This document shows, piece by piece, positions 15,116 to 32,364 of a stretch of 64,000 bases of DNA (positions are counted from its first letter, which is position 1; each line of letters begins with the position of its first letter). Below the pieces are notes generated by a model that was not told the origin of the DNA, ran no database searches, and saw only the letters and a list, made by a program, of their open reading frames with translations. The DNA comes from a virus: positions 64,001-128,000 of IMG/VR virus record IMGVR_UViG_3300045988_176782; one strand, written 5' to 3'. A program made the position numbers and the translations under genes.

Positions 15116-15130
15116 TTATGTTAAACATAA
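15116..15130 (+). promoter_or_regulatory. early-cassette palindrome TTATGTT-N-AACATAA, copy 1/28
   Basis: Exact 7-1-7 inverted repeat. A -35-like CTTGCG and a TATAAT lie downstream. Confidence 0.9.
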
Positions 15131-15202
15131 GGAAAAGAAACTTGCGCTTTTATGCAAAGTATGCTATAATAAGGCGAAGCCGATAGAAAGAAGGTATCTA
15201 CC

Positions 15203-15433
15203 ATGTATAACTATGCACCCACTGCATCACTTTACCATGCTAAAGCGCTCACCCACCATGTCAATGTGCACCGTTTGCGCCTGCGCCGTTCCTACCACAG
15301 CGTTATTAACTGGCAGGGCGCGGGACATTACGGTTGCGAGCTGGGCTGGAAGCTGCTGAAGCTGCTATTGGTCGGAGCTGGAGCTGCTTCCTTCCCCGTT
15401 GCGTTTATCCTTTGGTGGTTCGGCATTGTATAA
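15203..15433 (+). CDS. early cassette protein, 76 aa, C-terminal transmembrane segment
   Basis: GAAAGAAGG RBS. His/Arg-rich N-part then LLLVGAGAASFPVAFILWWFGIV. Confidence 0.6.
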   Translation: MYNYAPTASLYHAKALTHHVNVHRLRLRRSYHSVINWQGAGHYGCELGWKLLKLLLVGAGAASFPVAFILWWFGIV

Positions 15434-15456
15434 TGCCGAACTGCATTTGATTTTCC

Positions 15457-15471
15457 TTATGTTAGACATAA
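15457..15471 (+). promoter_or_regulatory. early-cassette palindrome, copy 2/28
   Basis: TTATGTTAGACATAA (one mismatch). TTTACA and TATAAT lie downstream. Confidence 0.85.
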
Positions 15472-15557
15472 AGAAAAAAGACTTTACAAAATCTCAAAAC
15501 TATAATATAATATAATCAACCCGAAAGGGCATAATTTAGAAAGAAGGTTAAACTATA

Positions 15558-15839
15558 ATGATGAACGCCGCCGCCGCTATGCGCAAGATAACCGAAACTG
15601 CTCGTTTGGATTTAGGCACGCAAGTCATAGACCATTGGATTGAGACAGTGGTTATTCCCGAAATGAAAGAACTGGCCGAACTCGGACTTTCCAATTATGT
15701 AGTTAATAATTGTCCCACTTTTCGCGATACAGAAATCAATAAGCAACTTTGCCAATATACTGGAAAAATTCTCAATGAAAACGGATACGACTACAGCACC
15801 AACAAAGAAAAAACCAAAATTGCAATCATCTATTGGTAA
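15558..15839 (+). CDS. early cassette protein, 93 aa
   Basis: Cassette promoter and RBS upstream. The stop lies inside the hairpin TGGTAAGGC..GCCTTACCA. Confidence 0.6.
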   Translation: MMNAAAAMRKITETARLDLGTQVIDHWIETVVIPEMKELAELGLSNYVVNNCPTFRDTEINKQLCQYTGKILNENGYDYSTNKEKTKIAIIYW

Positions 15840-15877
15840 GGCGCGAGCCTTACCATTTTATTTCATTTTCTTTTTCC

Positions 15878-15892
15878 TTATGTTAAACATAA
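15878..15892 (+). promoter_or_regulatory. early-cassette palindrome, copy 3/28
   Basis: Exact repeat. Promoter and GTTCC..GGAAC leader lie downstream. Confidence 0.9.
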
Positions 15893-15984
15893 AGAAAAAA
15901 CCTATTGCAATTCTCCCAAAACTATGTTATCATATAATCGTTCCAAGGGAACACACCAATTACATTCTGAAAGGGGTTTATACT

Positions 15985-16176
15985 ATGTTTAGCGCTTACT
16001 ATGCTCCCGCCACCGTTTCCAAAGGGTATTTTGTTGATTCTGTTCTGCGCTCCACTTCCCGCCGTCTTTTGAAATACTTGGGCTGCGTCAATATTCAAAT
16101 TTCAAAAGTGGAAGATAATCGTTTTTTATCTTTCCTTTACTGCTCCGAACTATCCCGAAACCTTGAGCAAAATTGA
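15985..16176 (+). CDS. early cassette protein, 63 aa
   Basis: AAAGGGG RBS, then internal ATG of track ORF 15775..16176. Confidence 0.5.
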   Translation: MFSAYYAPATVSKGYFVDSVLRSTSRRLLKYLGCVNIQISKVEDNRFLSFLYCSELSRNLEQN

Positions 16177-16229
16177 ATTGGTTTTGGCCGCTTATGTCTA
16201 AGCGGCCACCTATTTCATTTTCTTTTTCC

Positions 16230-16244
16230 TTATGTTAGACATAA
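16230..16244 (+). promoter_or_regulatory. early-cassette palindrome, copy 4/28
   Basis: TTATGTTAGACATAA. TTGCGC and TATACT lie downstream. Confidence 0.85.
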
Positions 16245-16331
16245 AGAAAAACCCCTTGCGCAAAACCCAAAACTATGTTATACTTGTATCGTTCCAAAGG
16301 GGAACAGAATTTATTGAAAGGTGGTCATACC

Positions 16332-16640
16332 ATGATTAACATTCGCACGATTCGCAAGCTCTCTAATAACGACGGTCTTACTCTCAAAAAAGGCAAGAAA
16401 ATTGCCTACAAAACCGGTTGGCAAGTAGCCGACCATGGTGTAGAATGCAAAACGCCGGAAGCTGCTATCAAAGCTGTGCGCGGGCTGGGCGGCGATTGTG
16501 GTATTTGGTACAGTGATGGAATTTACTATATTGACCACAGCTTCCGTGTAGATACCAAAAAGAAGGCGCTGGAAATTGGGCGGCGGCACAATCAGATTTC
16601 CGTTCTCGGTTGGCGTAAAATGAACTTGGCGTATTGCTAA
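16332..16640 (+). CDS. early cassette protein, 102 aa
   Basis: GAAAGGTGG RBS, then internal ATG of track ORF 16275..16640. Confidence 0.6.
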   Translation: MINIRTIRKLSNNDGLTLKKGKKIAYKTGWQVADHGVECKTPEAAIKAVRGLGGDCGIWYSDGIYYIDHSFRVDTKKKALEIGRRHNQISVLGWRKMNLAYC

Positions 16641-16660
16641 TACGCCATCCCCTATTTTCC

Positions 16661-16675
16661 TTATGTTAAACATAA
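16661..16675 (+). promoter_or_regulatory. early-cassette palindrome, copy 5/28
   Basis: Exact repeat. TTGACA and TATAAT lie downstream. Confidence 0.9.
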
Positions 16676-16747
16676 AGAAAATAATCTTGACAACACTGTC
16701 CTATTTTAGTATAATACAATTACCAAATAACGAAAGGGGTTTTCACC

Positions 16748-16909
16748 ATGACGAATTACTACTACATCCACAACGAACACGGCTATCTTGTTACCTATGA
16801 CGAGATGATTGAAATTTGCCGCAACGAATATGATTGCGATGACCCTACTAATTCTCTAAGCTGGAAGGAATATTTCACCAAAACACGATATGTTGTGCCT
16901 TGCGAATAA
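16748..16909 (+). CDS. early cassette protein, 53 aa
   Basis: Full cassette upstream with AAAGGGG RBS. Below the ORF-track cutoff. Translated by hand. Confidence 0.5.
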   Translation: MTNYYYIHNEHGYLVTYDEMIEICRNEYDCDDPTNSLSWKEYFTKTRYVVPCE

Positions 16910-16926
16910 GCAAGGTCATATTTTCC

Positions 16927-16941
16927 TTATGTTTAACATAA
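16927..16941 (+). promoter_or_regulatory. early-cassette palindrome, copy 6/28
   Basis: TTATGTTTAACATAA (central T). Promoter lies downstream. Confidence 0.9.
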
Positions 16942-17026
16942 AGAAAAAGGTCTTGCACTTTCCGCGCCATTATGTTATTATGTAGGTGTTCCAAAGGGAA
17001 CGGAATAATGAAAGGTGGTTGTGATC

Positions 17027-17374
17027 ATGTTTGAATCTCGTGAAAATCTTCTAGATGAAATCATTTCGCAGGCCATTTCTGATGAAGTTTTCTGCCACAA
17101 CGTTCTCAAGCCCACCATTGAAGATTATGGCGATACAGCTGATGAAGCTGAATGGAAAACTACCGCGCAGGTCGCGGTTGGCGGCTATGTAAAGGATAAT
17201 TTTTCCGTGGAGCTGAGTCAAGCGTGGAAAATCGCGCAAAACCTTTTCACCAAGGAAGATATTGAGTATATGGCCGATGCCTTTATGAACTACTATGAAG
17301 AAGAAATTGAGGAAGCGCGAGCCGAATCCATTGAAAGGCATAAAGCAAAAATGAAAGAACTTTTTGGGGAGTAA
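17027..17374 (+). CDS. early cassette protein, 115 aa, acidic
   Basis: AAAGGTGG RBS, then ATG inside track ORF 17015..17374. Confidence 0.6.
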   Translation: MFESRENLLDEIISQAISDEVFCHNVLKPTIEDYGDTADEAEWKTTAQVAVGGYVKDNFSVELSQAWKIAQNLFTKEDIEYMADAFMNYYEEEIEEARAESIERHKAKMKELFGE

Positions 17375-17400
17375 AGTCCCCAATTTCATTTTTATTTTCT

Positions 17401-17415
17401 TTATGTTAAACATAA
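17401..17415 (+). promoter_or_regulatory. early-cassette palindrome, copy 7/28
   Basis: Exact repeat. TTGCAA and TATACT lie downstream. Confidence 0.9.
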
Positions 17416-17502
17416 AGAAAAGAAGATTGCAATTTTCCCTTTAATATAGTATACTTATATCGTCCAAAAGGACATACCAATTTTAGAAAGAAGGTTTTTA
17501 CT

Positions 17503-17811
17503 ATGACAAAGGTTTCGGAACTCGTCTTTTCCAATCACTGTTTGCAGGAACGTCTTTACCGCATCAATCTAATTGAGGAAAAAATTGGTTATGGGCAGAT
17601 TGTAAAAGAATCCTATTGGCGCGGAAGTTATCATTTTCTAACTGACACTGGCGTGGCGTTTGTGGTAGATAATGATAAGCATTATATCATTACTCTTTAT
17701 TTGGTAGATGAAGGACAAGCAAATCGTTTGTACGGCGGAAAAATTCCTAAAAGTTTGCAAAAGAAAATCAGTAAAAATATTTCAATGGGATATGTAAAAT
17801 TGAGGGATTAA
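17503..17811 (+). CDS. early cassette protein, 102 aa
   Basis: Cassette and RBS upstream. Intact ORF. Confidence 0.6.
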   Translation: MTKVSELVFSNHCLQERLYRINLIEEKIGYGQIVKESYWRGSYHFLTDTGVAFVVDNDKHYIITLYLVDEGQANRLYGGKIPKSLQKKISKNISMGYVKLRD

Positions 17812-17830
17812 AATCCCTCTCTGTTTTTCT

Positions 17831-17845
17831 TTATGTTAAACATAA
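17831..17845 (+). promoter_or_regulatory. early-cassette palindrome, copy 8/28
   Basis: Exact repeat. TTGACA and TATAAT lie downstream. Confidence 0.9.
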
Positions 17846-17935
17846 AGAAAATCCCTCTTGACAAATTACGCCACTTCCTTTATAATTAAGACGTTCCCAG
17901 AAGGGAGCAACCAAAAACGAAAGGTGGTTTTCACT

Positions 17936-18271
17936 ATGATGACTTCTTCTACCTTCTACTTTGACCGTGCCCGCAATGGTTACGTATTCCGCCGTATGAA
18001 CCGCGCAGAATGGTACGAGACTTCTCATCTACTCCGCCGCTTCCACCTGACCGAAGGAATGGTGTTGGGGAGCTGGTACGAGGAACAGTTCTTCATGTTC
18101 TACAGTGGCTATGAGGGCTATGGCGTAGAAATCTCACCGTTGGACTCTGGCAAGACGAGCTACATCATGAGCTGCCGCCGTCTTTACCAGCTGGCCGAGA
18201 GCGAAGAAGAGCGGCGAACCCAACTGGAAAATGCACGCGAATGGTATAACAAATATATTAAGGCTCATTGA
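17936..18271 (+). CDS. early cassette protein, 111 aa
   Basis: GAAAGGTGG RBS, then internal ATG of track ORF 17858..18271. Confidence 0.6.
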   Translation: MMTSSTFYFDRARNGYVFRRMNRAEWYETSHLLRRFHLTEGMVLGSWYEEQFFMFYSGYEGYGVEISPLDSGKTSYIMSCRRLYQLAESEEERRTQLENAREWYNKYIKAH

Positions 18272-18292
18272 GCCTTAATTTTATTTTCTTCC

Positions 18293-18307
18293 TTATGTTA
18301 AACATAA
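18293..18307 (+). promoter_or_regulatory. early-cassette palindrome, copy 9/28
   Basis: Exact repeat. TTGCAT and TACTAT lie downstream. Confidence 0.9.
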
Positions 18308-18394
18308 AGAAAATGGTATTGCATTTTCTTCCCCGATATGATACTATATAGGTGTTCCAAGGGGAACGAAATAAAGAAAAGGACGGTGCAAACT

Positions 18395-18616
18395 ATGTAT
18401 ACTAAAATTGATAAACGACAGGCGCGCAAACTCTGGAATGAGGGCAAAAATTTTACTATGGTATCTTGCAATCTGCGGCCAGAGTTTGGAATCAATGTAA
18501 ATTCTGCGAGCTGGAAGCAACTTAAGGACTTTGATAAGCTCATCAATGAGTTTAGCTATTATAACTGCGGAGACTCTGCGCGTGGCCGCTACCCGGCATT
18601 TTATGTGGAGCTGTAA
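18395..18616 (+). CDS. early cassette protein, 73 aa
   Basis: AAAAGGA RBS, then internal ATG of track ORF 18338..18616. Confidence 0.55.
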   Translation: MYTKIDKRQARKLWNEGKNFTMVSCNLRPEFGINVNSASWKQLKDFDKLINEFSYYNCGDSARGRYPAFYVEL

Positions 18617-18633
18617 AAGCTCCACTATATTCT

Positions 18634-18648
18634 TTATGTTAAACATAA
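18634..18648 (+). promoter_or_regulatory. early-cassette palindrome, copy 10/28
   Basis: Exact repeat. TTGACA and TATTAT lie downstream. Confidence 0.9.
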
Positions 18649-18725
18649 GGAAGCTGGCATTGACACAAACAAAAACTTTTGATATTATATAGATGTTCTA
18701 AGGAACAAGAAAGGAAGTAAAAGGT

Positions 18726-19118
18726 ATGACGATTGGTGCTTGGATTTTGGTTATTATCTTGGGTATTATTGGAATTGGTTTTGCTATATTTTATTTTCTT
18801 GACGATGAAAAAACTCATGGACTGGTGGCTATACTAATTACTATTATTGTAATTGGTGGTCTAATCCTTGGTTTGTCTTGGTTTTATAATAATACTGGTT
18901 CTGGCCTCCGTGCAATGAAAGACCAGCAGAGCAATCTTAACAACGGTATCAACCGCGACATTAAAGTTGTTGAAAGCAATGGTTTTGTTTCCTACGAATT
19001 TAGCGGCAAGGCTGATTTGGAAACGCACGACGATTATATTGTATTTGAAAGTGAAGGTAAGCGCACTATTATTTACAAGAGTTATACTAGCACGATTGTA
19101 ATTACGGAAATTGATTAA
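18726..19118 (+). CDS. membrane protein, 130 aa, two N-terminal TM helices
   Basis: Hydrophobic stretches AWILVIILGIIGIGFAIFYF and LVAILITIIVIGGLILGLSWF. Confidence 0.6.
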   Translation: MTIGAWILVIILGIIGIGFAIFYFLDDEKTHGLVAILITIIVIGGLILGLSWFYNNTGSGLRAMKDQQSNLNNGINRDIKVVESNGFVSYEFSGKADLETHDDYIVFESEGKRTIIYKSYTSTIVITEID

Positions 19119-19146
19119 AGGGAGACTTCTCCCTTCCTTAAATTCT

Positions 19147-19161
19147 TTATGTTAAACATAA
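19147..19161 (+). promoter_or_regulatory. early-cassette palindrome, copy 11/28
   Basis: Exact repeat. TTGACA and TATAAT lie downstream. Confidence 0.9.
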
Positions 19162-19226
19162 AGAAAAAATAATTGACACAAAAATAATTTTCTGTTATAA
19201 TCTTTTTACGAAAGGGGTTGAAAGAT

Positions 19227-19418
19227 ATGGATAATTCAAAGTACCCTATGATTTTTGGTCAAGGTGAGCGATTGGGATACTATGCCTATGTGTTGGACTG
19301 GAATAGTTGTTGCGTCAAGTTGCGTATTCCTGTTGGTATGTTTACATTTTTCTATGATGAATGGTATAGCTGGGATGAAGCCATGGAGCTGTATAATTTT
19401 GAAGGAGTTGAGCTGTAA
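19227..19418 (+). CDS. early cassette protein, 63 aa
   Basis: AAAGGGG RBS, then ATG inside track ORF 19218..19418. Confidence 0.5.
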   Translation: MDNSKYPMIFGQGERLGYYAYVLDWNSCCVKLRIPVGMFTFFYDEWYSWDEAMELYNFEGVEL

Positions 19419-19603
19419 TGACAAATTTTGAGAGAGAAGAACAGGCAATTTTGACAGAAGCTGCAAGCACAAAAGCTAATATTTTCCGTATGATTAAAGA
19501 CCAGCTGCTAACAGAAGAAGAAGGCTACTTATGGCTCAATGACAAGCTGCTGATACTCCAAGAACGTTGGTTCCAGCTCCATCGCAAGTTGATGGAAGGT
19601 TAA
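19418..19603 (+). CDS. early protein, 61 aa
   Basis: The start overlaps the upstream stop (TAATG). Confidence 0.5.
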   Translation: MTNFEREEQAILTEAASTKANIFRMIKDQLLTEEEGYLWLNDKLLILQERWFQLHRKLMEG

Positions 19604-19621
19604 ACCTTCCACTCAAATTCC

Positions 19622-19636
19622 TTATGTTAAACATAA
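19622..19636 (+). promoter_or_regulatory. early-cassette palindrome, copy 12/28
   Basis: Exact repeat. Promoter and leader hairpin lie downstream. Confidence 0.9.
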
Positions 19637-19707
19637 AGAAACAAACCTTGTATTTTTTCGCAAACTATGTTATTATCTAATTGTTCCAAGAGGAACAGAA
19701 AGGAAGT

Positions 19708-20127
19708 ATGAATATGAATCAGATGGACGGAAATTTCTCTCATCAGGTTTGGCAGAGCGCAGTGCAATTCCAGAAGGAAACCATTGGCAAGAACAATAAC
19801 TTGTATGAGTTCCTTCAGTGGGTTAGCGAGAAAGCTAACAACAAAGACACCTATCGGTGGGCTGATGCCGTCAATAACTATGCCGCAGGCCGCTACACCG
19901 TGGAAACCTTCGTGAAGGGCCGCAATGTGGTTGTGTATGTGGGCGATGAGGTTGATAATGTGTTCTGCCGTGGTTCTGCTCATTGCAACAAGGACGACCA
20001 CTTTGATTCTAATATTGGCCGCGCCATTGCGCTGTATCGTGCGCTTTCCAGTCTGGAAGATGGCAAAGACGACAGCGGTATCTACAATCCCAAGCGAACC
20101 GACCTTGAGCCGCCGTTTGACATCTAA
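19708..20127 (+). CDS. early protein with C..D.FD.NIGRAIA motif, about 139 aa
   Basis: Internal ATG of track ORF 19681..20127 (19714 is also possible). Shares the motif HCNKDDHFDSNIGRAIALYRAL with 20459..20704. Confidence 0.55.
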   Translation: MNMNQMDGNFSHQVWQSAVQFQKETIGKNNNLYEFLQWVSEKANNKDTYRWADAVNNYAAGRYTVETFVKGRNVVVYVGDEVDNVFCRGSAHCNKDDHFDSNIGRAIALYRALSSLEDGKDDSGIYNPKRTDLEPPFDI

Positions 20128-20162
20128 TGGAAATGGGGATTTTCCCTATTTCATTTAATTCC

Positions 20163-20177
20163 TTATGTTAAACATAC
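20163..20177 (+). promoter_or_regulatory. early-cassette palindrome, copy 13/28
   Basis: TTATGTTAAACATAC. TTGACA and TATTAT lie downstream. Confidence 0.85.
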
Positions 20178-20255
20178 AGAAAACCATATTGACAATTTTC
20201 CCCCGAAATGATATTATATCACTGTTCCAATAGGGAACGAGGAAGGAGAAACACC

Positions 20256-27050: not shown

Positions 27051-27088
27051 TATAATCAAGGAGAACTTGAAAGAAAGGAAGTTTTGAT

Positions 27089-27556: not shown

Positions 27557-27575
27557 TCCATCAAACCATTTTTCT

Positions 27576-27590
27576 TTATGTTAAACATAC
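27576..27590 (+). promoter_or_regulatory. early-cassette palindrome, copy 22/28
   Basis: TTATGTTAAACATAC. TTTACT and TATACT lie downstream. Confidence 0.85.
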
Positions 27591-27670
27591 AGAAAACACA
27601 CTTTACTTTTTCCTAATTTATGCTATACTATACTTGTTCCTAAGGGGAACAGAAAGAGAGGAAGAAAGAC

Positions 27671-28075
27671 ATGGAAAACACCACTTATCTGATTCGGTTC
27701 CTTATCTTGAATGACGAGAACGAGGTTCTCAAGAACTTCATTCTGACTGAACGTAAATACAATACCCGCGAAGAAGCCGCCGAAGCCGCACAGACAGTGT
27801 GCTGTGTGCTAATGAACCATTGCGGATGGAATGTATTCTATCGTATTGTTAATCCCGTTGCTATTTGTACAAGTGGCTTTCACGAGATGACCGCAGACGG
27901 TAGCATCGTTAGTGATGATGAATTACACGAAGAAGAAGAAAACGAGGATGAGGACGAAGAAGAATACGAAGGTGAAGAAGAAAATGATTCCTACAACGAG
28001 CTTACGGACGAAGAAATAAGAGCCATTCTCCGGTATGCACCCAACTTTATTAGAAAGAAATATGAGGACGAGTAA
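27671..28075 (+). CDS. early cassette protein, 134 aa, poly-acidic C-region
   Basis: Intact ORF. Contains HEEEENEDEDEEEYEGEEEND. Confidence 0.6.
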   Translation: MENTTYLIRFLILNDENEVLKNFILTERKYNTREEAAEAAQTVCCVLMNHCGWNVFYRIVNPVAICTSGFHEMTADGSIVSDDELHEEEENEDEDEEEYEGEEENDSYNELTDEEIRAILRYAPNFIRKKYEDE

Positions 28076-28095
28076 TCGTCCTTTTCTTGTTTTCT

Positions 28096-28110
28096 TTATG
28101 TTAAACATAC
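28096..28110 (+). promoter_or_regulatory. early-cassette palindrome, copy 23/28
   Basis: TTATGTTAAACATAC. TTGACT and TATAAT lie downstream. Confidence 0.85.
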
Positions 28111-28189
28111 AGAAAATTCCATTGACTTCCTCCCTAAATATGATATAATAAATTTGTCCTTGAGGGGCAGAAGAAAGAAAGGAAGTTAA

Positions 28190-28792
28190 ATGCATGATTT
28201 TCAAGACTTACGAACCACCACTCTGACCGACCGCGCTTCTATTGGTGTTGCTACTGTAAAGTTTAATGCTGTTTGCCGTGCCTGCGGAAAGAACAAGCCA
28301 AACAAGAATGATTATATTGATTACTGTTTTAATAAATTGGGAGCAATGGAAAAATGCAAACTCAAACATGACTGGCTTCGTGATGAAGATGACCTTGACC
28401 GCGCCGCTTGGGAAGCACAGTGCCAACAGGAATGGTATAACATTCTTGATACCATTCGTTCCAATGATTCTTCCCCTATCTTCGCAGTTTATATCGCTAT
28501 TCTTCCTTCTGGCGTGAAGTGCGGCGAAACTAAGAACTTGCGTCAGCGCTATTCTTCCTTGAAAGCAAGCAACGACATTCTCCACATGTACTACTTGCCT
28601 GTAGAAAACAAGGAACAAAGCACCGCCGCAGAAGATGCCCTTCACTATATTTTTGACCACGCTAAAGGTATGCGGCGAGAGAAGAACAAAAAAGACTACT
28701 ATTCTTGCGAAGAAGATTATGCCCGCAAATTTATTGAGCGAAATAAGCGAGAAATTTATGATGCGATTATGGCAGAAATTGAGGGAGACTGA
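28190..28792 (+). CDS. T5orf172/GIY-YIG-like domain protein, 200 aa
   Basis: FAVYIAILPSGVKCGETKNLRQRY resembles the T5orf172 (MUG113) core. Called from the motif by eye only. Confidence 0.4.
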   Translation: MHDFQDLRTTTLTDRASIGVATVKFNAVCRACGKNKPNKNDYIDYCFNKLGAMEKCKLKHDWLRDEDDLDRAAWEAQCQQEWYNILDTIRSNDSSPIFAVYIAILPSGVKCGETKNLRQRYSSLKASNDILHMYYLPVENKEQSTAAEDALHYIFDHAKGMRREKNKKDYYSCEEDYARKFIERNKREIYDAIMAEIEGD

Positions 28793-28812
28793 TTCTCCCT
28801 TTTATTTTTTCC

Positions 28813-28827
28813 TTATGTTTAACATAA
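28813..28827 (+). promoter_or_regulatory. early-cassette palindrome, copy 24/28
   Basis: TTATGTTTAACATAA. TTGACT and TATACT lie downstream. Confidence 0.9.
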
Positions 28828-28905
28828 AGAAAATCTCTCTTGACTTTTCGTGTCTTTCCTGTTATACTATCAGTGTTCTAAAGAGAACAGAAAGGCGGTA
28901 ACTAC

Positions 28906-29907
28906 ATGGCCAAACAGAAATTACTCTTAACCTTTGATACAGAGACTTGCACTATCTCTGTACCTGATTCTTGGAATCTGACTGCCAACGAGAAGAAAAA
29001 AATCTGTATTACCCGTCCGCTTATTTATGATATTGGCTGGACAATTTCTTCTCGTTCTGCTGGTATTATTGAAAAGAAAAACTATCTCATTGCCGAAACA
29101 TTCTCCGTTCCCTCCGTTTTCAATACTGCTTACTATAAAGAAAAACGCCCCATTTATCTTGATATGATTAACAACGGTGAGTTGACTGTTCGTTGTTGGC
29201 GCGAAGTAATGGAAATTTTTCTCGCAGACTGCGAACAGGCAGATTTAATCTGCGCTTTCAATGAACAATTTGACCTCCGTGCAATTAACTTTACCGAGCT
29301 TTATATCAACAAACTTTATAGTCCTAACTATCAAAGTTGGTATGAAAATCAGGTTGCGCTCTGTTGGAAAATCGCCCATCAACCCTACAAAAAGAAAAAT
29401 GACAAAGACTTTGACCCCTTGTATTTTACCTTCCGAAACAAACAGTATAAGGTGATGGATATTTGGGGCTTAGCTTGCGAAAACATTATCAATACCCCTA
29501 CATATAAACGAGCTTGTCTTGAACATTCTCTTATTTCTCCGTCTGGAATGTATTTTAGCACTAATACCGAAAATGTTAGACGCTTCATCTATAAAGAATA
29601 CGGCTTTATTGAAGAACATACAGCACTTTCTGACGCAGAAATTGAAACAGAAATCCTTCTTAAAGCCCTCAAGCGTGGCAAGAAGGTTGAAGGAATTGAG
29701 TTTTTTCCCTTCCGAAAACTTGGTTATGTTTCTGATTTTATTGTAGAAGATAGCCGCATTACTCCCGCTATGGCACAAAATGCACTTGATATTCTGAATG
29801 CCTATATTGACCAGCATAGCGAACAACAAACACCGTATTTGTCGCAAGTTATCAACCATACGGCGCGGATAGAAAAAAGACGTGATTCTCTTTTGTGGGA
29901 CGAATAA
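28906..29907 (+). CDS. DEDDh 3'-5' exonuclease (DnaQ-like), 333 aa
   Basis: Exo I is FDTET, Exo II is AFNEQFD and Exo III is HTALSDAEIE. Confidence 0.7.
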   Translation: MAKQKLLLTFDTETCTISVPDSWNLTANEKKKICITRPLIYDIGWTISSRSAGIIEKKNYLIAETFSVPSVFNTAYYKEKRPIYLDMINNGELTVRCWREVMEIFLADCEQADLICAFNEQFDLRAINFTELYINKLYSPNYQSWYENQVALCWKIAHQPYKKKNDKDFDPLYFTFRNKQYKVMDIWGLACENIINTPTYKRACLEHSLISPSGMYFSTNTENVRRFIYKEYGFIEEHTALSDAEIETEILLKALKRGKKVEGIEFFPFRKLGYVSDFIVEDSRITPAMAQNALDILNAYIDQHSEQQTPYLSQVINHTARIEKRRDSLLWDE

Positions 29908-29936
29908 TGTCCCACCTTTTTATAAAAATTTCTTCC

Positions 29937-29951
29937 TTATGTTAAACATAC
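29937..29951 (+). promoter_or_regulatory. early-cassette palindrome, copy 25/28
   Basis: TTATGTTAAACATAC. TTGACA and TATACT lie downstream. Confidence 0.85.
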
Positions 29952-30058
29952 AGAAAAAGATTATTGACAAAAAATAAAAATCTTGTTATACTATATATGT
30001 TCCTTGAGAGAGGAAAAAAGAGGAAGGACACCTCACAAACCAGAGAGGAAGAAAACAT

Positions 30059-30595
30059 ATGAAAAAGGATTTTAAGGCGGAAGTTCTGGCACTGGCTGAA
30101 TCTATGGTGGGCATTCCCGAAGGTGCTTTCAAGGTTCTCCACTCCAAGCAGGAATGTTATTGCTTTGACACTGGCAAGAAGGATGAAGAAGGCCGTCCCG
30201 TTCCGGCTCTGTTGTATGTGAAGATTCCCGACATTGAAGGAACGAAAACTCGTGATGGTTTTGACGTGGAACTTGCGAAAGCCGCCTACGAAGAAAAGAT
30301 GACTGCCGCCGCAAACAAGCCCGCGAAGAAGTCCGCGCCCAAGGGCGGTGACCCGGCTGTGGCTGAAAAGCGTGAAGAACGCATGAAGGTTCTGCGCCGT
30401 TGGTGGGAGAATGAAGCCGAATATGGTCACGATTACACCAGCACCGAAGTATTCAACGCTCTGCCTGATATTTACGGCATTGACGTTAATACGCAGGGCG
30501 CAATGCTGACAGGCCGAGACCTTGCCCAGCTTGCGAAGGAAGGGCTTGCCGAAATGAATATGATTGAAAAGAAGAAGTGCTATTCCAAGCGTTAA
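30059..30595 (+). CDS. paralog family A member, 178 aa
   Basis: Same architecture as 25971 and 32796: an N-domain, an Ala/Lys-rich linker and a C-terminal domain. Confidence 0.55.
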   Translation: MKKDFKAEVLALAESMVGIPEGAFKVLHSKQECYCFDTGKKDEEGRPVPALLYVKIPDIEGTKTRDGFDVELAKAAYEEKMTAAANKPAKKSAPKGGDPAVAEKREERMKVLRRWWENEAEYGHDYTSTEVFNALPDIYGIDVNTQGAMLTGRDLAQLAKEGLAEMNMIEKKKCYSKR

Positions 30596-30641
30596 GGTAA
30601 GAGGGGACGAAAGTCCCCTTTTATTTTAAGAGTAGGTTTCC

Positions 30642-30656
30642 TTATGTTAAACATAC
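30642..30656 (+). promoter_or_regulatory. early-cassette palindrome, copy 26/28
   Basis: TTATGTTAAACATAC. TTTACA and TATTAT lie downstream. Confidence 0.85.
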
Positions 30657-30731
30657 AGAAACAGACCTTTACATTTCTGCGGCGATATGGTATTATATCA
30701 ATGTTCCAAGGAACAGAAAGGAAGGTAGAAT

Positions 30732-30983
30732 ATGAAGATTAAACACGCAGACACATTAGGCATTCATTGCTTTAAGAATCTTAAAGCAGGAGATACTTTT
30801 TACTATAACGACAAACTTTATATAAAAGTGCATTCTCTCTCTGTTACTTTTGCCTATAAGAAAGTCATTATCGCGAATGCTCTAAGTTTAGAGGTTTTCG
30901 CTTTAGCTTATATTAAAGATGATGAAAAAGTCGCTTGTGTTGAAAGTGAGCTTACTGTTAGTAATTATAGGAGGATGAACTAA
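30732..30983 (+). CDS. small paralog family B, member 1 (83 aa)
   Basis: The first of four tandem genes of about 80 aa sharing G-D-x-F-x-Y-x-(N/D)-x-(Y/F)-(Y/F/I)-(I/M)-K-(L/V). Confidence 0.6.
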   Translation: MKIKHADTLGIHCFKNLKAGDTFYYNDKLYIKVHSLSVTFAYKKVIIANALSLEVFALAYIKDDEKVACVESELTVSNYRRMN

Positions 30984-30984
30984 G

Positions 30985-31218
30985 ATGGAAATCATTTACG
31001 CCTATCAAACTCAATCATTTTCTAAAATTATCGCGGGAGATATTTTCAAGCACGAAGATGAATACTATATGAAGCTCGCGCAAAAATCGGAACCTGTTAT
31101 TGTTTTTAATAACAACTTTGTCCCTAATGCCGTTGGAATGAGAGACGGCGAACTAATTTATTTTCCTGCTGATACAAAAGTGATGTTTGTTCCTGCAAAA
31201 CTTCAAGTAGAAAGGTGA
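30985..31218 (+). CDS. small paralog family B, member 2 (77 aa)
   Basis: AGDIFKHEDEYYMKL. GGAGG RBS. Confidence 0.6.
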   Translation: MEIIYAYQTQSFSKIIAGDIFKHEDEYYMKLAQKSEPVIVFNNNFVPNAVGMRDGELIYFPADTKVMFVPAKLQVER

Positions 31219-31223
31219 AATGT

Positions 31224-31466
31224 ATGCAAATTACTACTGTTGATAAAGAAAAAGAAATTTCTCTCCATTGTATTGACTATGGTGCAGTATTCAAATATTA
31301 TAATGAATATTACATAAAACTGAAATATGCAGATACCAGTAATTTACCCCGATACGAAAGCGGAGCTTACCCCACTGTTGTTTGTTTAGAAGATGGAAGT
31401 TTAACTTGTTTTGCAGAAACGACTTTAGTGGAAGTCGTAGATGCAGAGTTAAGAGTAAAGGAGTGA
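31224..31466 (+). CDS. small paralog family B, member 3 (80 aa)
   Basis: GAVFKYYNEYYIKL. ATG inside track ORF 31215..31466. Confidence 0.6.
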   Translation: MQITTVDKEKEISLHCIDYGAVFKYYNEYYIKLKYADTSNLPRYESGAYPTVVCLEDGSLTCFAETTLVEVVDAELRVKE

Positions 31467-31471
31467 AAGAT

Positions 31472-31708
31472 ATGAAGGTTCTTTCCGAAGATTTTTGTAA
31501 GAGGACTTTTCAGGAACTTCCTGAAGGTGAAATTTTTCGCTATGGCAACAACTTTTTTATTAAACTTGTCCAATTAGAAAAAGTCATTATGCACGATGAA
31601 GAAGGTTATCCTATCAATGCCGTTAATATTGGAAATGGCGTTCCTGCTTATTTCCAAGAAGGTGTTATTATTACTTACTTTGACGACGAAGTTATGGCAA
31701 TGAGGTGA
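31472..31708 (+). CDS. small paralog family B, member 4 (78 aa)
   Basis: GEIFRYGNNFFIKL. AAAGGAG RBS. Internal ATG of track ORF 31382..31708. Confidence 0.6.
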   Translation: MKVLSEDFCKRTFQELPEGEIFRYGNNFFIKLVQLEKVIMHDEEGYPINAVNIGNGVPAYFQEGVIITYFDDEVMAMR

Positions 31709-31713
31709 AGTAC

Positions 31714-31911
31714 ATGCACATTTTAGTTTGTATCTTTCTTGCCTTTTACTTTACTGAATGTATTTCTTCCGCTTTTGAAATTGCAGGAGAAGATTGTCCA
31801 ACACTTTCACTTACGGATACTTTGCTGTTTCTATTGTGTTGTATTGTACCGATGAAGTGCATAGCCAAGGCATACAAGAAACTTGATAATTGGGTAAGAG
31901 GACTTGAGTAA
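31714..31911 (+). CDS. small membrane protein, 65 aa
   Basis: Two hydrophobic segments. ATG inside track ORF 31705..31911. Confidence 0.5.
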   Translation: MHILVCIFLAFYFTECISSAFEIAGEDCPTLSLTDTLLFLLCCIVPMKCIAKAYKKLDNWVRGLE

Positions 31912-31931
31912 GCAAGTCCTTTTTGTTTTCC

Positions 31932-31946
31932 TTATGTTTAACATAA
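31932..31946. promoter_or_regulatory. early-cassette palindrome, copy 27/28, at a convergent gene junction with no promoter
   Basis: TTATGTTTAACATAA sits between the T-tracts of two facing terminator hairpins (31895-31928 and 31950-31985). No -35/-10 follows on either strand. Confidence 0.85.
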
Positions 31947-31966
31947 AGAAGAAAAAGGAGGAAGAT

Positions 31967-32272
31967 TTAATCTTCCTCCACAATCCAATCATCTACAGTT
32001 TCTTCCGCGGTTTCATCAACAAAATCACTAACAAATTGCTTGAAAGTGTTTTGCATTTCTTTTAACTGTTTCTCCGTTGCCTTTGGCAGCTTCAACAGCC
32101 AATCATCCAAGCAACAATCTTTGTGTTCGCCTAAATACTCATTGAAATAATACATAATATCGTCGTTGCACAAATATTTTTCCGGGTCTTTTGCCCAAGT
32201 CATAGCTAAAAATTCTTTTGCATTTTCCCGAACAAAGAACTTATTGCCATCAATATTCCAAATCTTTTCCAT
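31967..32272 (-). CDS. early cassette protein on the opposite strand, 101 aa, acidic C-terminus
   Basis: The complete cassette (palindrome, promoter, leader, GAAAGGAAG) is present on the minus strand. Internal ATG of track ORF 31967..32305. Confidence 0.6.
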   Translation of the reverse strand: MEKIWNIDGNKFFVRENAKEFLAMTWAKDPEKYLCNDDIMYYFNEYLGEHKDCCLDDWLLKLPKATEKQLKEMQNTFKQFVSDFVDETAEETVDDWIVEED

Positions 32273-32349
32273 ATCCCTCAACTTCCTTTCTGCTCTCTTG
32301 AGCATCTATAGAATATCACACTCCACCTAAAAAGTCAAACCAAAATTCC

Positions 32350-32364
32350 TTATGTTTAACATAA
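32350..32364 (-). promoter_or_regulatory. early-cassette palindrome, copy 28/28, serving the minus-strand gene
   Basis: On the minus strand the order is palindrome, TTTGAC, TATTCT, CTCAAGAGAGC leader, GAAAGGAAG, then ATG at 32272. Confidence 0.85.

What the first reader, a model, noticed from the sequence alone, without database searches (positions are those of the whole stretch)
15116..32364. 28 copies of a 15-bp palindrome define insulated single-gene early cassettes
TTATGTT-N-AACATAA is usually embedded in CCTTATGTTAAACATAAAGAAAA. It recurs 28 times in 17 kb.

In 26 plus-strand copies it sits about 10-11 nt upstream of a sigma-A-type -35 (TTGACA-like), followed by 17 nt and a TATAAT/TATACT -10. 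That puts the dyad centre near -55. It also lies immediately after the T-tract of the previous gene's terminator.

Copy 28 is inverted and serves the single minus-strand gene. Copy 27 (31932) lies between two convergent terminators with no promoter at all. So the element is not just part of the promoter.

It could be a dimeric regulator operator controlling the whole early regulon at once. It could also be an UP-element-like activator site, a transcriptional insulator or roadblock, or an RNA hairpin (8-bp stem, UAA loop) at transcript 3' ends.

I do not know of a described phage regulon with this architecture.
Basis: seen in the sequence. Interest (0 to 1): 0.85.

Follow-up and report, generated by a model that had tools for sequence, protein, structure and literature searches.

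The report
Phased palindromic operator on early promoters
A gut phage carries the same 15-bp palindrome at a fixed, helix-phased position upstream of 27 early promoters, and related phages carry different palindromes at the same place, so it is most likely the binding site of an unidentified regulator that controls the whole early gene set at once.

Summary
There are 28 copies of TTATGTT-N-AACATAA at 15116-32364, against 0-1.4 expected by chance.

Twenty-seven copies lie 11-12 nt upstream of a sigma-A-type -35. That puts the dyad centre at about -54, just after the previous terminator.

New evidence:
- The invariant site is 22 bp: TTCyTTATGTTWAACATAmrGAA. It is better conserved than the promoter hexamers.
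- Relatives with 49-61% protein identity keep a palindrome at the same place. Their outer arm bases differ (TTA, AGA or ATC before TGTT). The change is the same in both arms and uniform within each genome.
- Over seven genomes the dyad-to--35 distance takes only the values 19, about 30, 40 and 50 bp. The period is 10.4-10.6 bp (0 of 20,000 nulls).
- Mismatches between the arms are not compensated, which argues against an RNA or cruciform role.
- Whole cassettes are gained and lost at the palindrome, as with T4 PeSL elements. The promoter-less copy 27 fits inversion of a cassette.

Best reading: an operator for a dimeric protein that contacts RNA polymerase. The protein is unidentified, and whether it activates or represses is unknown.

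The phage reads TAG as glutamine outside this array.

The parts
15108..32368 (+). Early cassette array. It holds 27 units, each built as terminator, palindrome, A-tract, sigma-A promoter, 5'UTR and gene(s). All units are on the + strand except the last one.
   Evidence: No in-frame TAG occurs in its genes.
15116..15130 (+). Palindrome 1, TTATGTTAAACATAA
   Evidence: -35 at 15142-15147 (TTGCGC), -10 at 15165-15170 (TATAAT). Serves ORF 15203-15433.
15457..15471 (+). Palindrome 2, TTATGTTAGACATAA
   Evidence: -35 at 15483, -10 at 15506. Gene 15558-15839.
15878..15892 (+). Palindrome 3
   Evidence: -35 at 15905 (gap 12), -10 at 15928. Gene 15985-16176. This cassette is absent in relatives B and L078.
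16230..16244 (+). Palindrome 4, TTATGTTAGACATAA
   Evidence: -35 at 16256, -10 at 16279. Gene 16332-16640.
16661..16675 (+). Palindrome 5
   Evidence: -35 at 16687 (TTGACA), -10 at 16710 (TATAAT). Gene 16748-16909.
16927..16941 (+). Palindrome 6
   Evidence: -35 at 16953, -10 at 16976. Gene 17027-17374.
17401..17415 (+). Palindrome 7
   Evidence: -35 at 17427, -10 at 17450. Gene 17503-17811.
17831..17845 (+). Palindrome 8
   Evidence: -35 at 17858 (gap 12), -10 at 17881. Gene about 17936-18271.
18293..18307 (+). Palindrome 9
   Evidence: -35 at 18319 (TTGCAT), -10 at 18342 (TACTAT). Gene 18395-18616.
18634..18648 (+). Palindrome 10
   Evidence: -35 at 18660, -10 at 18683. Gene 18726-19118.
19147..19161 (+). 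Palindrome 11
   Evidence: -35 at 19173, -10 at 19196. Genes 19227-19418 and 19418-19603.
19622..19636 (+). Palindrome 12
   Evidence: -35 at 19648, -10 at 19671. Gene 19708-20127 (Rv2632c-like domain).
20163..20177 (+). Palindrome 13, TTATGTTAAACATAC
   Evidence: -35 at 20189, -10 at 20212. Genes 20256-20441 and 20459-20704.
20724..20738 (+). Palindrome 14
   Evidence: -35 at 20750, -10 at 20773. Gene 20827-21387.
21409..21423 (+). Palindrome 15, TTATGTTTAACATAT
   Evidence: -35 at 21435, -10 at 21458. Gene 21493-22065, followed by the palindrome-less internal promoter at 22105.
22543..22557 (+). Palindrome 16
   Evidence: -35 at 22569, -10 at 22591. Genes 22636-23052 and 23042-23275.
23298..23312 (+). 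Palindrome 17 (...CATAC)
   Evidence: -35 at 23324, -10 at 23347. Genes 23391-24304.
24325..24339 (+). Palindrome 18 (...CATAC)
   Evidence: -35 at 24351, -10 at 24374. Gene 24417-24617. The tRNA genes that follow have their own palindrome-less promoter at 24607.
25199..25213 (+). Palindrome 19
   Evidence: -35 at 25225, -10 at 25248. Gene 25292-25732.
25760..25774 (+). Palindrome 20
   Evidence: -35 at 25786, -10 at 25808, with a second promoter at 25882. Gene 25941-26492.
26544..26558 (+). Palindrome 21
   Evidence: -35 at 26570, -10 at 26593. Genes 26637-27050 and 27089-27556.
27576..27590 (+). Palindrome 22
   Evidence: -35 at 27602, -10 at 27624. Gene 27671-28075. This cassette is absent in L073.
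28096..28110 (+). Palindrome 23
   Evidence: -35 at 28122, -10 at 28144. Gene 28190-28792 (T5orf172).
28813..28827 (+). Palindrome 24
   Evidence: -35 at 28840 (gap 12), -10 at 28863. Gene 28906-29907, which was the query used to reach relatives.
29937..29951 (+). Palindrome 25
   Evidence: -35 at 29964 (gap 12), -10 at 29987. Gene 30059-30595.
30642..30656 (+). Palindrome 26
   Evidence: -35 at 30668, -10 at 30691. Five genes, 30732-31911.
31932..31946 (.). Palindrome 27. It has no promoter on either side and lies between convergent terminators at 31896-31923 (+) and 31979-31957 (-).
   Evidence: Read as the far boundary of an inverted cassette.
32350..32364 (-). Palindrome 28. It lies 11 nt upstream of the minus-strand promoter TTGACT (32338-32333)-17-TATTCT, which serves gene 31967-32272. 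Its centre is also 52 nt upstream of the -35 of the plus-strand promoter at 32409.

Best explanation
**What it is.** The palindrome is the core of a 22-bp operator, TTCyTTATGTT-W-AACATAmrGAA. A sequence-specific dimeric DNA-binding protein most likely binds it. A phage-encoded protein is favoured, but a host protein is not excluded.

**Position.** The operator sits on one face of the helix, centred at about -54 of 27 sigma-A-type early promoters. In relatives it also sits one, two or three helical turns further upstream. An A-tract (AGAAAA, about -46 to -41) lies between the operator and the -35, where the alpha C-terminal domain of RNA polymerase normally docks.

**Proposed action.** The bound protein would touch RNA polymerase and set the activity of all early cassettes together. 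Most core promoters are already near consensus. I therefore think the more likely direction is coordinated shut-off, either by excluding the alpha C-terminal domain or by over-stabilising the polymerase as phi29 p4 does. Activation from a class-I-type position remains possible.

**Secondary effect.** The same invariant block is the main crossover point at which whole cassettes are gained, lost, replaced and, once, inverted.

**Shown and inferred.** Shown here:
- copy number, spacing and conservation;
- the lineage-specific symmetric variants;
- the 10.5-bp phasing;
- the cassette polymorphism and its junctions.

Inferred:
- that a protein binds;
- that it contacts RNA polymerase;
- the direction of the effect;
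- who encodes the protein.
For: **1. Sequence-specific constraint.**
- Information content is 1.4-2.2 bits at every palindrome position, higher than in the -35 and -10 hexamers. It falls to about 0.1 bit in the 5 nt between the AGAAAA tract and the -35.
- Between orthologous copies in three genomes that are about 90% identical, divergence is 1.9% in the palindrome. It is 4.5% in the -35, 4.2% in the -10 and 8% in the spacer.
- In 329 copies from the population, 17 positions never vary, including the G and the C.

**2. Register with the promoter, not with the terminator.**
- The gap to the -35 is 11 nt in 263 and 12 nt in 28 of 327 copies.
- The distance from the terminator stem to the palindrome varies from 7 to 22 nt.

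**3. Variation that keeps the symmetry.** Relatives were reached through the 333-aa early protein. Each carries a palindrome at the same place.
- TTATGTT-W-AACATAA: the window and L133.
- TTAGAYGTT-W-AACRTCTAA: L134 and L138.
- TAGATGTT-N-AACATCTA: L136 and L137.
- TATCTGTT-N-AACAGATA: L135.

Arm positions 1-4 (TGTT) are shared. Positions 5-7 are TTA, AGA or ATC. They are identical in both arms and uniform within a genome.

**4. Helical phasing.** Distances from the dyad centre to the -35 cluster as follows:

| distance (nt) | sites |
|---|---|
| 18-20 | 106 |
| 28-31 | 9 |
| 39-41 | 5 |
| 49-52 | 16 |

The best period is 10.4-10.6 bp, with R = 0.87 for the 31 far sites. None of 20,000 uniform nulls reaches this value. 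The far sites are in phase with the main class.

**5. Directional asymmetry.**
- The promoter-proximal arm tolerates T to G at arm position 7. This occurs at 14 or more cassette positions.
- The distal arm never shows the mirror change (0 of 329).
- In L134 and L138, arm position 4 is mostly C in the distal arm and T in the proximal arm.

**6. A private motif.**
- It occurs only in this phage lineage: 2 IMG/VR contigs and about 40 gut-metagenome contigs, all 83-98% identical to the window.
- In the two IMG/VR genomes of 165.6 and 168.2 kb it is confined to one stretch of about 17 kb each.
- Among 185,579 species genomes there are only scattered single hits.

**7. Timing.** The tRNA genes and several other genes inside the array use palindrome-less sigma-A promoters. 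This fits a control that is specific to the early protein genes.
Against: - No binding protein was identified.
- The most obvious candidates are the universal early winged-helix paralogues 25941-26492, 30059-30595 and 32796-33308. The 32796 model has pLDDT 84, and its best fold matches are Fur, Zur, PerR, CodY and MarR winged helices at weak E-values of 5e-3 to 3e-2. Their putative recognition helices do not change with operator class.
- Uniformity within a genome together with differences between lineages is also what concerted evolution of a recombination linker would give.
- Symmetric change is also what a hairpin would give.
- The phasing statistics include orthologous promoters, so the sites are not fully independent.
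- Promoters and transcription starts are predicted, not mapped.
- The host is unknown and uncultured.
- The direction of regulation is a guess. Near-consensus promoters argue against a need for activation, whereas class-I-like phasing is best known from activators.
Confidence: 0.62

Rival explanations
1. The palindrome is the operator of a host transcription factor. The phage would tie its early genes to a host regulator, and each phage lineage would track the operator variant of its own host.
For: - The phage does use host sites. A perfect Firmicute LexA box, CGAACATATGTTCG, lies at 14962-14975, just upstream of the array.
- The 7-1-7 format is the one used by Fur-family regulators and CodY (own knowledge).
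- No phage protein was found to co-vary with operator class.
- If the site activates, the protein must be present at the moment of infection.
Against: - A scan of 185,579 species genomes found only 27 single hits, scattered over unrelated taxa. No genome had several copies. The 20-nt pattern was strict, so degenerate host sites would have been missed.
- No known Firmicute operator that I can recall matches TGTT-N-AACA with these arms (own knowledge, not a database test).
Confidence: 0.2
2. The palindrome is a recombination linker only. It would be the longest identical patch in a PeSL-like junction, kept uniform by gene conversion among copies, and it would matter for cassette shuffling but not for transcription.
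For: **Whole-cassette differences among about 29 related sequences**:
- cassettes 03, 05-06, 06-08, 10-11 and 22 are absent in some sequences;
- new cassettes n1-n5 are present in others;
- the order of cassettes is conserved.

**Other evidence:**
- Identity jumps between 75% and 98% from one cassette to the next.
- Four of five mapped indel junctions lie within the palindrome block plus or minus 15 nt.
- Variant copies cluster by position...ATAA in the first half of the array and ...ATAC in the second.
- A complete cassette lies inverted between copies 27 and 28.
- PeSL elements are a precedent (PMC2839356).
Against: - Neutral homogenisation does not explain why dyad symmetry is kept when the sequence changes between lineages.
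- It does not explain the 10.5-bp phasing with the -35.
- It does not explain the sharp fall in conservation 5 nt before the -35, given that those 5 nt are conserved between orthologues.
- It does not explain the one-sided asymmetry.
- One junction lies in the 5'UTR hairpin rather than the palindrome. Recombination therefore uses any homology in the module.
Confidence: 0.1
3. The palindrome acts on termination or elongation. It would work either as an RNA hairpin at 3' ends or as the site of a roadblock protein like the mycobacteriophage stoperators. Either way it would insulate each cassette from read-through.
For: - It lies directly after the T-tract of the previous terminator.
- Copy 27 has no promoter.
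- As RNA the block can fold, at -7.5 to -13.6 kcal/mol in some copies.
- Stoperators are a precedent for more than 20 repressor sites in intergenic spaces (PMC9283540).
Against: **Against an RNA hairpin:**
- Pairing is not maintained. Pair (0,14) is Watson-Crick in 56% of copies and pair (-1,15) in 34%, with no compensating changes.
- The ...ATAC variants fold at only -3.6 kcal/mol, z = -2.3.
- In L134 most copies carry a C-A mismatch in mid-stem.
- No U-tract follows the hairpin on either strand.
- The element lies downstream of the terminator and upstream of the transcription start, so it should be absent from most transcripts.
- There is no Rfam match.

**Against a terminator-linked role in general:**
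- The distance to the terminator varies from 7 to 22 nt, while the distance to the -35 is fixed and phased.
Confidence: 0.08
4. The palindrome is a purely cis-acting upstream promoter element. It would act as an UP-like site or as intrinsically bent DNA that the alpha C-terminal domain reads directly, with no dedicated factor.
For: - It occupies -61 to -47, the zone of the distal UP subsite.
- The flanking AGAAAA at -46 to -41 resembles the proximal UP subsite (own knowledge of the UP consensus).
- Palindrome-less promoters in the window have A/T tracts in the same zone.
Against: - The invariant G and C positions carry the highest information.
- Host RNA polymerase alpha would not demand a different outer triplet (TTA, AGA, ATC) in different phage lineages, each uniform within its genome.
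- Sites at -64, -75 and -85 are beyond the usual reach of an UP element.
Confidence: 0.06
5. The palindrome is extruded as a DNA hairpin and used as a promoter by a phage RNA polymerase, as in N4. It would give a second route of early transcription.
For: - The stem of 6-13 bp and loop of 3 nt resemble N4 early promoter hairpins (own knowledge).
- The sequence is uniform within a genome.
Against: - No phage RNA polymerase was found in the window. The only transcription gene seen is a sigma-factor-like ORF.
- The arm mismatches are not compensated.
- Phasing with a sigma-A -35 has no role in such a model.
Confidence: 0.03

Closest known systems
PeSL (promoter-early stem-loop) cassettes of T4-type phages (Arbiol et al. 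2010, PMC2839356; also PMC4122927)
   Same: - It is a repeated intergenic module that joins a strong sigma-70-type early promoter to a stem-loop terminator.
- It flanks small ORFan genes in a hyperplastic region.
- Close relatives differ by insertion, deletion or replacement of whole cassettes at the module.
   Different: - PeSLs have no extra invariant palindrome. The stem-loop itself takes variable positions relative to the promoter.
- Here a separate 22-bp operator, better conserved than the promoter, sits in a fixed helical register.
- The phage family and host phylum are different.
- Mini-circles were not tested.
SPBRE operators of Bacillus prophage SPbeta, bound by the master repressor MrpR (Kohm et al. 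2023, PMC10516654)
   Same: - A roughly 15-bp partly palindromic element is repeated in about 10 promoter regions of a large phage of Firmicutes and is bound by one repressor.
- In aimR and yonX it ends 8-10 nt upstream of the -35.
- The window phage shares distant structural-protein homology with the SPbeta-like group.
   Different: - The sequence derived here for SPBRE is ACAAATAC-AAAAAATATGTAT, which is not related.
- SPBRE position relative to promoters varies.
- There are about 10 copies in 134 kb, against 28 copies in 17 kb here.
- No tyrosine-recombinase-like MrpR homologue was found in the window.
- The SPBRE system maintains lysogeny, and a temperate lifestyle is not shown here.
Stoperators of Cluster A mycobacteriophages (L5 gp71; PMC9283540, PMC6550527)
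   Same: - More than 20 repressor sites lie in short intergenic spaces across the early region.
- The site sequence is specific to the lineage (own knowledge of PMC6550527, which was not read here).
   Different: - Stoperators are asymmetric 13-mers bound by a monomer.
- They act on elongation and depend on orientation.
- They are not in register with a -35.
- The sites here are dyad-symmetric and phased with promoters.
Phage phi29 protein p4 (own knowledge; no paper read here)
   Same: - A Firmicute phage regulator binds an inverted repeat upstream of early promoters.
- It contacts the alpha C-terminal domain.
- It represses strong promoters by over-stabilising RNA polymerase and activates a promoter that lacks a good -35.
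   Different: - p4 sites are few, and their inner sequence is not conserved.
- No p4 homologue was detected here.
- There is no cassette array in phi29.
Class I activator sites such as CRP at -61.5, -71.5, -82.5 and -92.5 (own knowledge)
   Same: A dyad-symmetric site upstream of the -35 works from positions spaced by whole helical turns, with room for the alpha C-terminal domain between the factor and sigma.
   Different: - The series here is about -54, -64.5, -75 and -85.5.
- The core promoters are near consensus rather than weak.
- The half-sites are unrelated to the CRP/FNR consensus.

Membership tests
PeSL-type mobile regulatory cassettes | A repeated intergenic motif that combines a sigma-70-like early promoter with a stem-loop terminator | tested here: met
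PeSL-type mobile regulatory cassettes | Close relatives differ by whole-cassette insertion, deletion or replacement, with junctions inside the motif | tested here: met
   Four of five junctions lie in the palindrome block and one lies in the 5'UTR hairpin.
PeSL-type mobile regulatory cassettes | Excised mini-circles form by recombination between neighbouring motifs | not testable with these tools
   This needs inverse PCR or read-level data from infected cells or virions.
SPBRE/MrpR system of SPbeta | The operator sequence is related to SPBRE | tested here: not met
   SPBRE derived from seven SPbeta promoter regions is ACAAATAC-AAAAAATATGTAT. It has no similarity to TTATGTTWAACATAA.
SPBRE/MrpR system of SPbeta | The phage encodes a tyrosine-recombinase-fold repressor (MrpR/YopR homologue) | tested here: inconclusive
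   There are no integrase-family hits among window proteins scanned with Pfam and PHROGs. Only 64 kb of a genome of about 165 kb is in hand.
Mycobacteriophage stoperators | An asymmetric 13-mer whose orientation follows the direction of transcription | tested here: not met
   The site is dyad-symmetric. Only one arm position shows a directional bias.
Mycobacteriophage stoperators | Sites in intergenic spaces act independently of promoters, by blocking elongation | tested here: not met
   291 of 327 copies lie 11-12 nt from a -35, and the others are phased by whole helical turns.
Class I (CRP-like) activator sites | Upstream sites work only at positions spaced by integral helical turns | tested here: met
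   Distances are 19, about 30, 40 and 50 nt, with a period of 10.4-10.6 bp, R = 0.87 and 0 of 20,000 nulls. This shows position only, not function.
Class I (CRP-like) activator sites | The core promoter is weak and depends on the activator | tested here: not met
   Most core promoters match 10-12 of 12 consensus positions, and many have a TG extension.
UP element | An A/T-rich element read through the minor groove, with no base-specific G/C requirement, at -38 to -59 | tested here: not met
   The invariant G and C positions carry the highest information. The outer triplets are lineage-specific. The AGAAAA flank alone fits the proximal subsite (own knowledge of the consensus).
Structured RNA, terminator hairpin or Rfam family | Base pairs are kept by compensatory change, or the sequence matches a curated family | tested here: not met
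   Two arm pairs are Watson-Crick in only 34% and 56% of 329 copies, with no compensation. L134 copies carry a C-A mismatch. There is no Rfam hit at E <= 0.1 other than tRNAs.
Mobile short repeats (MITE or REP type) | Copies are dispersed in unrelated genomic contexts or genomes, independent of transcription signals | tested here: not met
   Multi-copy hits occur only in this phage lineage and only in the early array.
Integron attC cassettes | A dedicated integrase recombines at one precise point in the site | tested here: not met
   Junction positions differ between events. No integrase was seen in the window.

The most novel reading that the evidence does not exclude
These uncultured gut phages of about 165-185 kb, which read TAG as glutamine, would encode a so-far undescribed global early-gene regulator with exchangeable DNA specificity. 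At least three operator classes exist: TTA-, AGA- and ATC-TGTT. The regulator would contact host RNA polymerase from helically phased 7-1-7 operators. It would switch the whole standard-code early regulon together, possibly timed with the appearance of the TAG-dependent phage sigma factor.
Probability: 0.35. Interest if true: 0.8.

Novelty: new variant of a known kind. Interest (0 to 1): 0.7.

Why it matters
- **A handle on uncultured phages.** It gives a concrete, testable way into early gene control in a widespread family of large human-gut phages that has no cultured member near this lineage. One short DNA site would report on 20-30 promoters at once. The natural operator classes are ready-made specificity-swap experiments.
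- **A route to the regulator.** The site can be used to fish out the regulator, and it may reveal a new way of shutting off or timing host-polymerase transcription in Firmicute phages.
- **PeSL-type shuffling outside T4-like phages.** The array shows that PeSL-type modular shuffling of ORFan cassettes is not confined to T4-like phages of Gram-negative hosts.
- **Parts for synthetic biology.** Each unit is standardised: terminator, operator, consensus promoter, 5' hairpin, strong ribosome-binding site. That also makes the units attractive parts for Gram-positive synthetic biology.

Tried and rejected
**Searches that found nothing**
- Megablast of the array against 50,697 phage records gave no match.
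- Pfam and PHROGs on nearly all early proteins, scanned as concatenates, gave almost no families and no recognisable regulator.
- The first relatives I looked at do not have this palindrome. Enterococcus phage H1 puts the -35 inside the terminator loop. MT835855 has a different upstream motif.
- A scan of bacterial genomes for the motif gave only chance single hits, with no homology to the window. It yielded no host and no prophage.
- An Rfam scan found only the three tRNAs.
- A literature search for the palindrome sequences found nothing relevant.

**Candidate binding proteins**
- The winged-helix paralogues 25941, 30059 and 32796 were modelled and compared. The fold is a generic winged helix, with best hits to Fur, Zur, PerR, CodY and MarR at weak E-values. 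The putative recognition helix is nearly the same in the window and L134 although their operator classes differ. L135 and L136 show the same problem. They are not supported as the specificity determinant.
- The AbrB/SpoVT-domain early protein occurs only in L135-L137 and is absent from the window and L133, L134 and L138. It was rejected as a universal factor.
- The universal 77-aa and 138-aa proteins show no class-linked pattern.

**Known operators recalled from memory**
- I compared the site with LexA, Fur/PerR/Zur, CodY, Rex, CcpA cre, TnrA, PrfA, PadR, DnaA and parS operators. None fits. This is a recollection, not a database test.

Full report
**1.

An exact search for TTATGTTNAACATAA finds 15 copies where shuffles give none. 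Allowing two mismatches gives 29 against 1.35 expected. Twenty-eight of these lie between 15116 and 32364.

I aligned the copies on the palindrome. Each unit has the same order of parts:
- a G+C-rich hairpin with a T-tract;
- TTCC;
- the palindrome;
- AGAAAA;
- 5 unconserved bases;
- a TTGACA-like -35;
- a 16-17 nt spacer, often with TG;
- a TATAAT-like -10;
- a short 5' leader;
- a strong ribosome-binding site and a gene.

The gap from the palindrome to the -35 is 11 nt in 22 plus-strand copies and 12 nt in 4. This puts the dyad centre at about -54. Copy 28 has the same relation to a minus-strand promoter. Copy 27 has no promoter.

About a third of the cassettes hold more than one gene. Six sigma-A-like promoters in or next to the array lack the palindrome. 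They include the promoter of the three tRNA genes.

**2. What the window is**

The window is part of a large phage. Its head and portal proteins are distantly related to 130-140-kb phages of Enterococcus, Clostridioides, Brevibacillus and Bacillus, and to the gut phage phAss-1.

The exact motif occurs in two IMG/VR contigs of 165.6 and 168.2 kb and in about 40 metagenome contigs. Where the records name a source, it is the human gut. All are 83-98% identical to the window. In the two IMG/VR genomes the motif is confined to one stretch of about 17 kb each.

Outside the array the genes make sense only if TAG is read through:
- With TAG = Gln, ORF 4692-6278(-) matches a portal family over its full length, E = 3e-76.
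- ORF 11689-13299(-) matches a sigma-factor family.

This agrees with TAG-to-Gln recoding described for the phAss-1 group (PMC10607447). The array genes contain no in-frame TAG. They end in TAA 36 times, TGA 13 times and TAG twice. This fits their being expressed early, before suppression is available. That last step is an inference.

**3. The palindrome is under its own selection**

Information content is 1.4-2.2 bits at each palindrome position. That is above the promoter hexamers. It drops to about 0.1 bit in the five bases before the -35.

Between orthologous copies in three genomes, divergence is 1.9% in the palindrome. It is 4.5% in the -35, 4.2% in the -10 and 8% in the spacer.

Over 329 copies in the population the invariant positions define a 22-bp site, TTCyTTATGTTWAACATAmrGAA.

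The palindrome keeps a fixed distance to the -35 in 291 of 327 copies. Its distance to the terminator stem ranges from 7 to 22 nt. It therefore belongs functionally with the promoter.

**4. It is not an RNA or cruciform element**

- Two arm pairs are Watson-Crick in only 34% and 56% of copies, and no compensating change is seen.
- Predicted RNA stability ranges from -13.6 to -3.6 kcal/mol between copies.
- The variation is one-sided. The promoter-proximal arm often has G where the distal arm always has T (0 of 329).
- No U-tract follows the hairpin.
- The element lies between a terminator and the next transcription start.
- Rfam has no match.

**5. Relatives give the decisive evidence**

Homologues of the 333-aa early protein form a graded series. 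I fetched six loci at 69% to 49% protein identity.

| locus | identity to the 333-aa protein | operator |
|---|---|---|
| window, L133 | 69% (L133) | TTATGTT-W-AACATAA |
| L134, L138 | 61%, 57% | TTAGAYGTT-W-AACRTCTAA |
| L136, L137 | 51%, 49% | TAGATGTT-N-AACATCTA |
| L135 | 54% | TATCTGTT-N-AACAGATA |

In every case the palindrome sits in front of the early promoters at the same place.

The inner four arm bases (TGTT) are shared. The next three are TTA, AGA or ATC. They are the same in both arms and the same in all copies of a genome. Changing both half-sites together while keeping symmetry and position is what a dimeric protein co-evolving with its operator would produce.

**6. Helical phasing**

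Pooling the seven genomes, the distance from the dyad centre to the first base of the nearest downstream -35 takes few values.

| distance (nt) | sites |
|---|---|
| 18-20 | 106 |
| 28-31 | 9 |
| 39-41 | 5 |
| 49-52 | 16 |
| 62, 77, 95 | 1 each |

The best period is 10.4-10.6 bp. The resultant length is 0.87 for the 31 far sites, and none of 20,000 uniform nulls reaches it. The far sites are in phase with the main class.

The operator is thus kept on one face of the helix relative to the promoter. This is the signature of a DNA-bound protein that touches RNA polymerase. The sites are not all independent, because some promoters are orthologous. Several distinct promoters contribute to each class.

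The inferred positions are about -54, -64.5, -75 and -85.5, with the A-tract at about -46 to -41 between operator and -35. They resemble class I geometry (own knowledge).

**7. Direction of control**

This is not shown. Most core promoters are at or near consensus. They should therefore fire without help as soon as the DNA enters the cell.

For that reason I favour coordinated shut-off. It could work by keeping the alpha C-terminal domain off its A-tract. It could also work by holding the polymerase at the promoter, as phi29 p4 does at strong promoters (own knowledge).

The tRNA genes, which are needed throughout infection, have a palindrome-less promoter inside the array. This fits shut-off but is weak evidence. 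Activation by a host protein or an immediate-early protein is not excluded.

**8. Who binds**

This is unknown. Almost all early proteins are ORFans.

Seven early proteins are shared by all six relatives. Three of them are paralogues with an N-terminal domain, a long helix and a C-terminal winged helix. I modelled the best-conserved one, 32796-33308. Its gene lies just after the last operator, behind palindrome-less promoters.
- The model has pLDDT 84.
- The best structural matches are the winged helices of Fur, Zur, PerR, CodY and MarR, at weak E-values. Matches in the viral library are generic HTH proteins.
- The putative recognition helix barely differs between lineages with different operator classes, so I do not support this candidate.

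An AbrB-domain early protein is limited to one branch of the family.

A host factor remains possible. The phage has a perfect LexA box just before the array. The motif is not enriched in any of 185,579 species genomes, although the search pattern was strict.

**9. Evolutionary role**

Among about 29 related sequences the cassette order is conserved, but whole cassettes come and go:
- cassettes 03, 05-06, 06-08, 10-11 and 22 are missing in some;
- five new cassettes appear in others, among them one with a 26-codon ORF and one with a GIY-YIG-like gene.

Identity between genomes jumps from 75% to 98% at cassette borders.

Four of five mapped deletion junctions fall within the palindrome block plus or minus 15 nt. 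One falls in the 5' leader hairpin. This is the behaviour described for PeSL elements of T4-type phages (PMC2839356).

Because the palindrome has no orientation, exchange between two copies can also invert a cassette. That would leave exactly what is seen at 31932-32364. One copy is next to a reversed terminator. The other is 11 nt from a reversed promoter. Copy 27 therefore does not need a promoter-independent function.

**10. Comparison with known systems**

- The array works like PeSL cassettes in architecture and shuffling, but it adds a separate operator.
- It resembles SPbeta SPBRE/MrpR and mycobacteriophage stoperators in having many copies of one regulatory site. Its sequence is unrelated to SPBRE. 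Its symmetry and promoter phasing differ from stoperators.
- I found no paper that mentions these sequences.
- I therefore class it as a new variant of a known kind: a multi-copy phage operator built into promoter-terminator cassettes. It has an unusually strict and phased geometry and natural specificity classes.

**11. Verdict**

The finding is real, and on the main point it was read well. The operator reading is supported at about 0.6. The regulator and the sign of its effect remain to be found.

Noticed in passing
window 4692-6278(-), 9591-10712(-), 11689-13299(-), 35943-36701(+), 39036-40169(+), 46272-47414(+), 50459-52681(+): Outside the early array, long coherent ORFs appear only if TAG is read through. 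With TAG = Gln, 4692-6278 matches a portal family over its full length (E = 3e-76). The early array has no in-frame TAG. No suppressor tRNA is in the window.
   Followed up: partly
window 11689-13002(-): A 438-aa ORF with in-frame TAG codons matches a phage sigma-factor family (phrog_5767, E = 4e-14). It has a Cys-rich C-terminus. It is transcribed divergently from the early array, from a palindrome-less sigma-A-like promoter near 13128.
   Followed up: partly
window 14962-14975 (and 14978-14990): A perfect Firmicute LexA (Cheo) box, CGAACATATGTTCG, plus a degenerate second copy. They lie between the terminator of the first plus-strand operon and palindrome 1, and are followed by A/T-rich CATATGAACA repeats (15000-15035).
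   Followed up: partly
window 13305-13362: The 22-bp unit TGTTCATAGTTTGTTTACAGTT is repeated about 2.7 times in tandem, directly upstream of the first plus-strand sigma-A-like promoter (TTGCAT, about 13372). This is in the divergent region between late and early genes.
   Followed up: no
window, 6-7 nt after each -10, for example 15940-15955 and 16291-16305: A conserved hairpin, (T)GTTCC-N3-5-GGAAC(A), starts at about the predicted transcription start in most cassettes of the window, and a GAAAGGAAG ribosome-binding site follows. It is also present in L134 but mostly absent in L135. It may be a 5' mRNA stabiliser or a second operator.
   Followed up: partly
window, for example 21378-21394, 20693-20713, 28064-28083, 27542-27567: Terminator stems overlap the last codons of the genes, and the TAA stop codon sits in the hairpin loop (...GAGTAA...). 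Many early proteins therefore end in similar residues.
   Followed up: no
window 33964-34130: Five copies of a different palindrome, TATCAC-NN-GTGATA-like, lie within about 170 bp, just after the winged-helix gene 33615-33959. This looks like an operator cluster or an origin.
   Followed up: no
window 22074-22099 (also L133 near 3680 and L134 near 2810): The internal promoter at 22105 has two copies of TTGTAACAATTT directly upstream instead of the palindrome. This element is kept in relatives that have a different main operator class.
   Followed up: partly
window 25941-26492, 30059-30595, 32796-33308 (N-terminal domain also in 22636-23052): A family of early paralogues found in all relatives. 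Each has an N-terminal alpha/beta domain, a long Lys/Ala/Glu-rich helix with an invariant PGRRVADP-type motif, and a C-terminal winged helix. They have no annotated homologues outside this phage family.
   Followed up: yes
window 7106-8032(-) and 8483-9442(-): Two HNH homing-endonuclease genes sit among fragments of what looks like the large terminase gene.
   Followed up: no
IMG/VR contig 3300045988_173030 (locus set B, about 17080-17260 in the reverse-complemented assembly): A GIY-YIG-like ORF with its own palindrome and promoter is inserted right after the ribosome-binding site of the homologue of gene 27089. The ribosome-binding site is reused as half of a new terminator stem.
   Followed up: partly
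L135 13068-13466, L136 12074-12475, L137 13164-13586: One branch of the family has an early protein with an AbrB/SpoVT (MazE_antitoxin) N-terminal domain. Its C-terminal part resembles the Rv2632c-like domain of window genes 19708-20127 and 20459-20704.
   Followed up: partly
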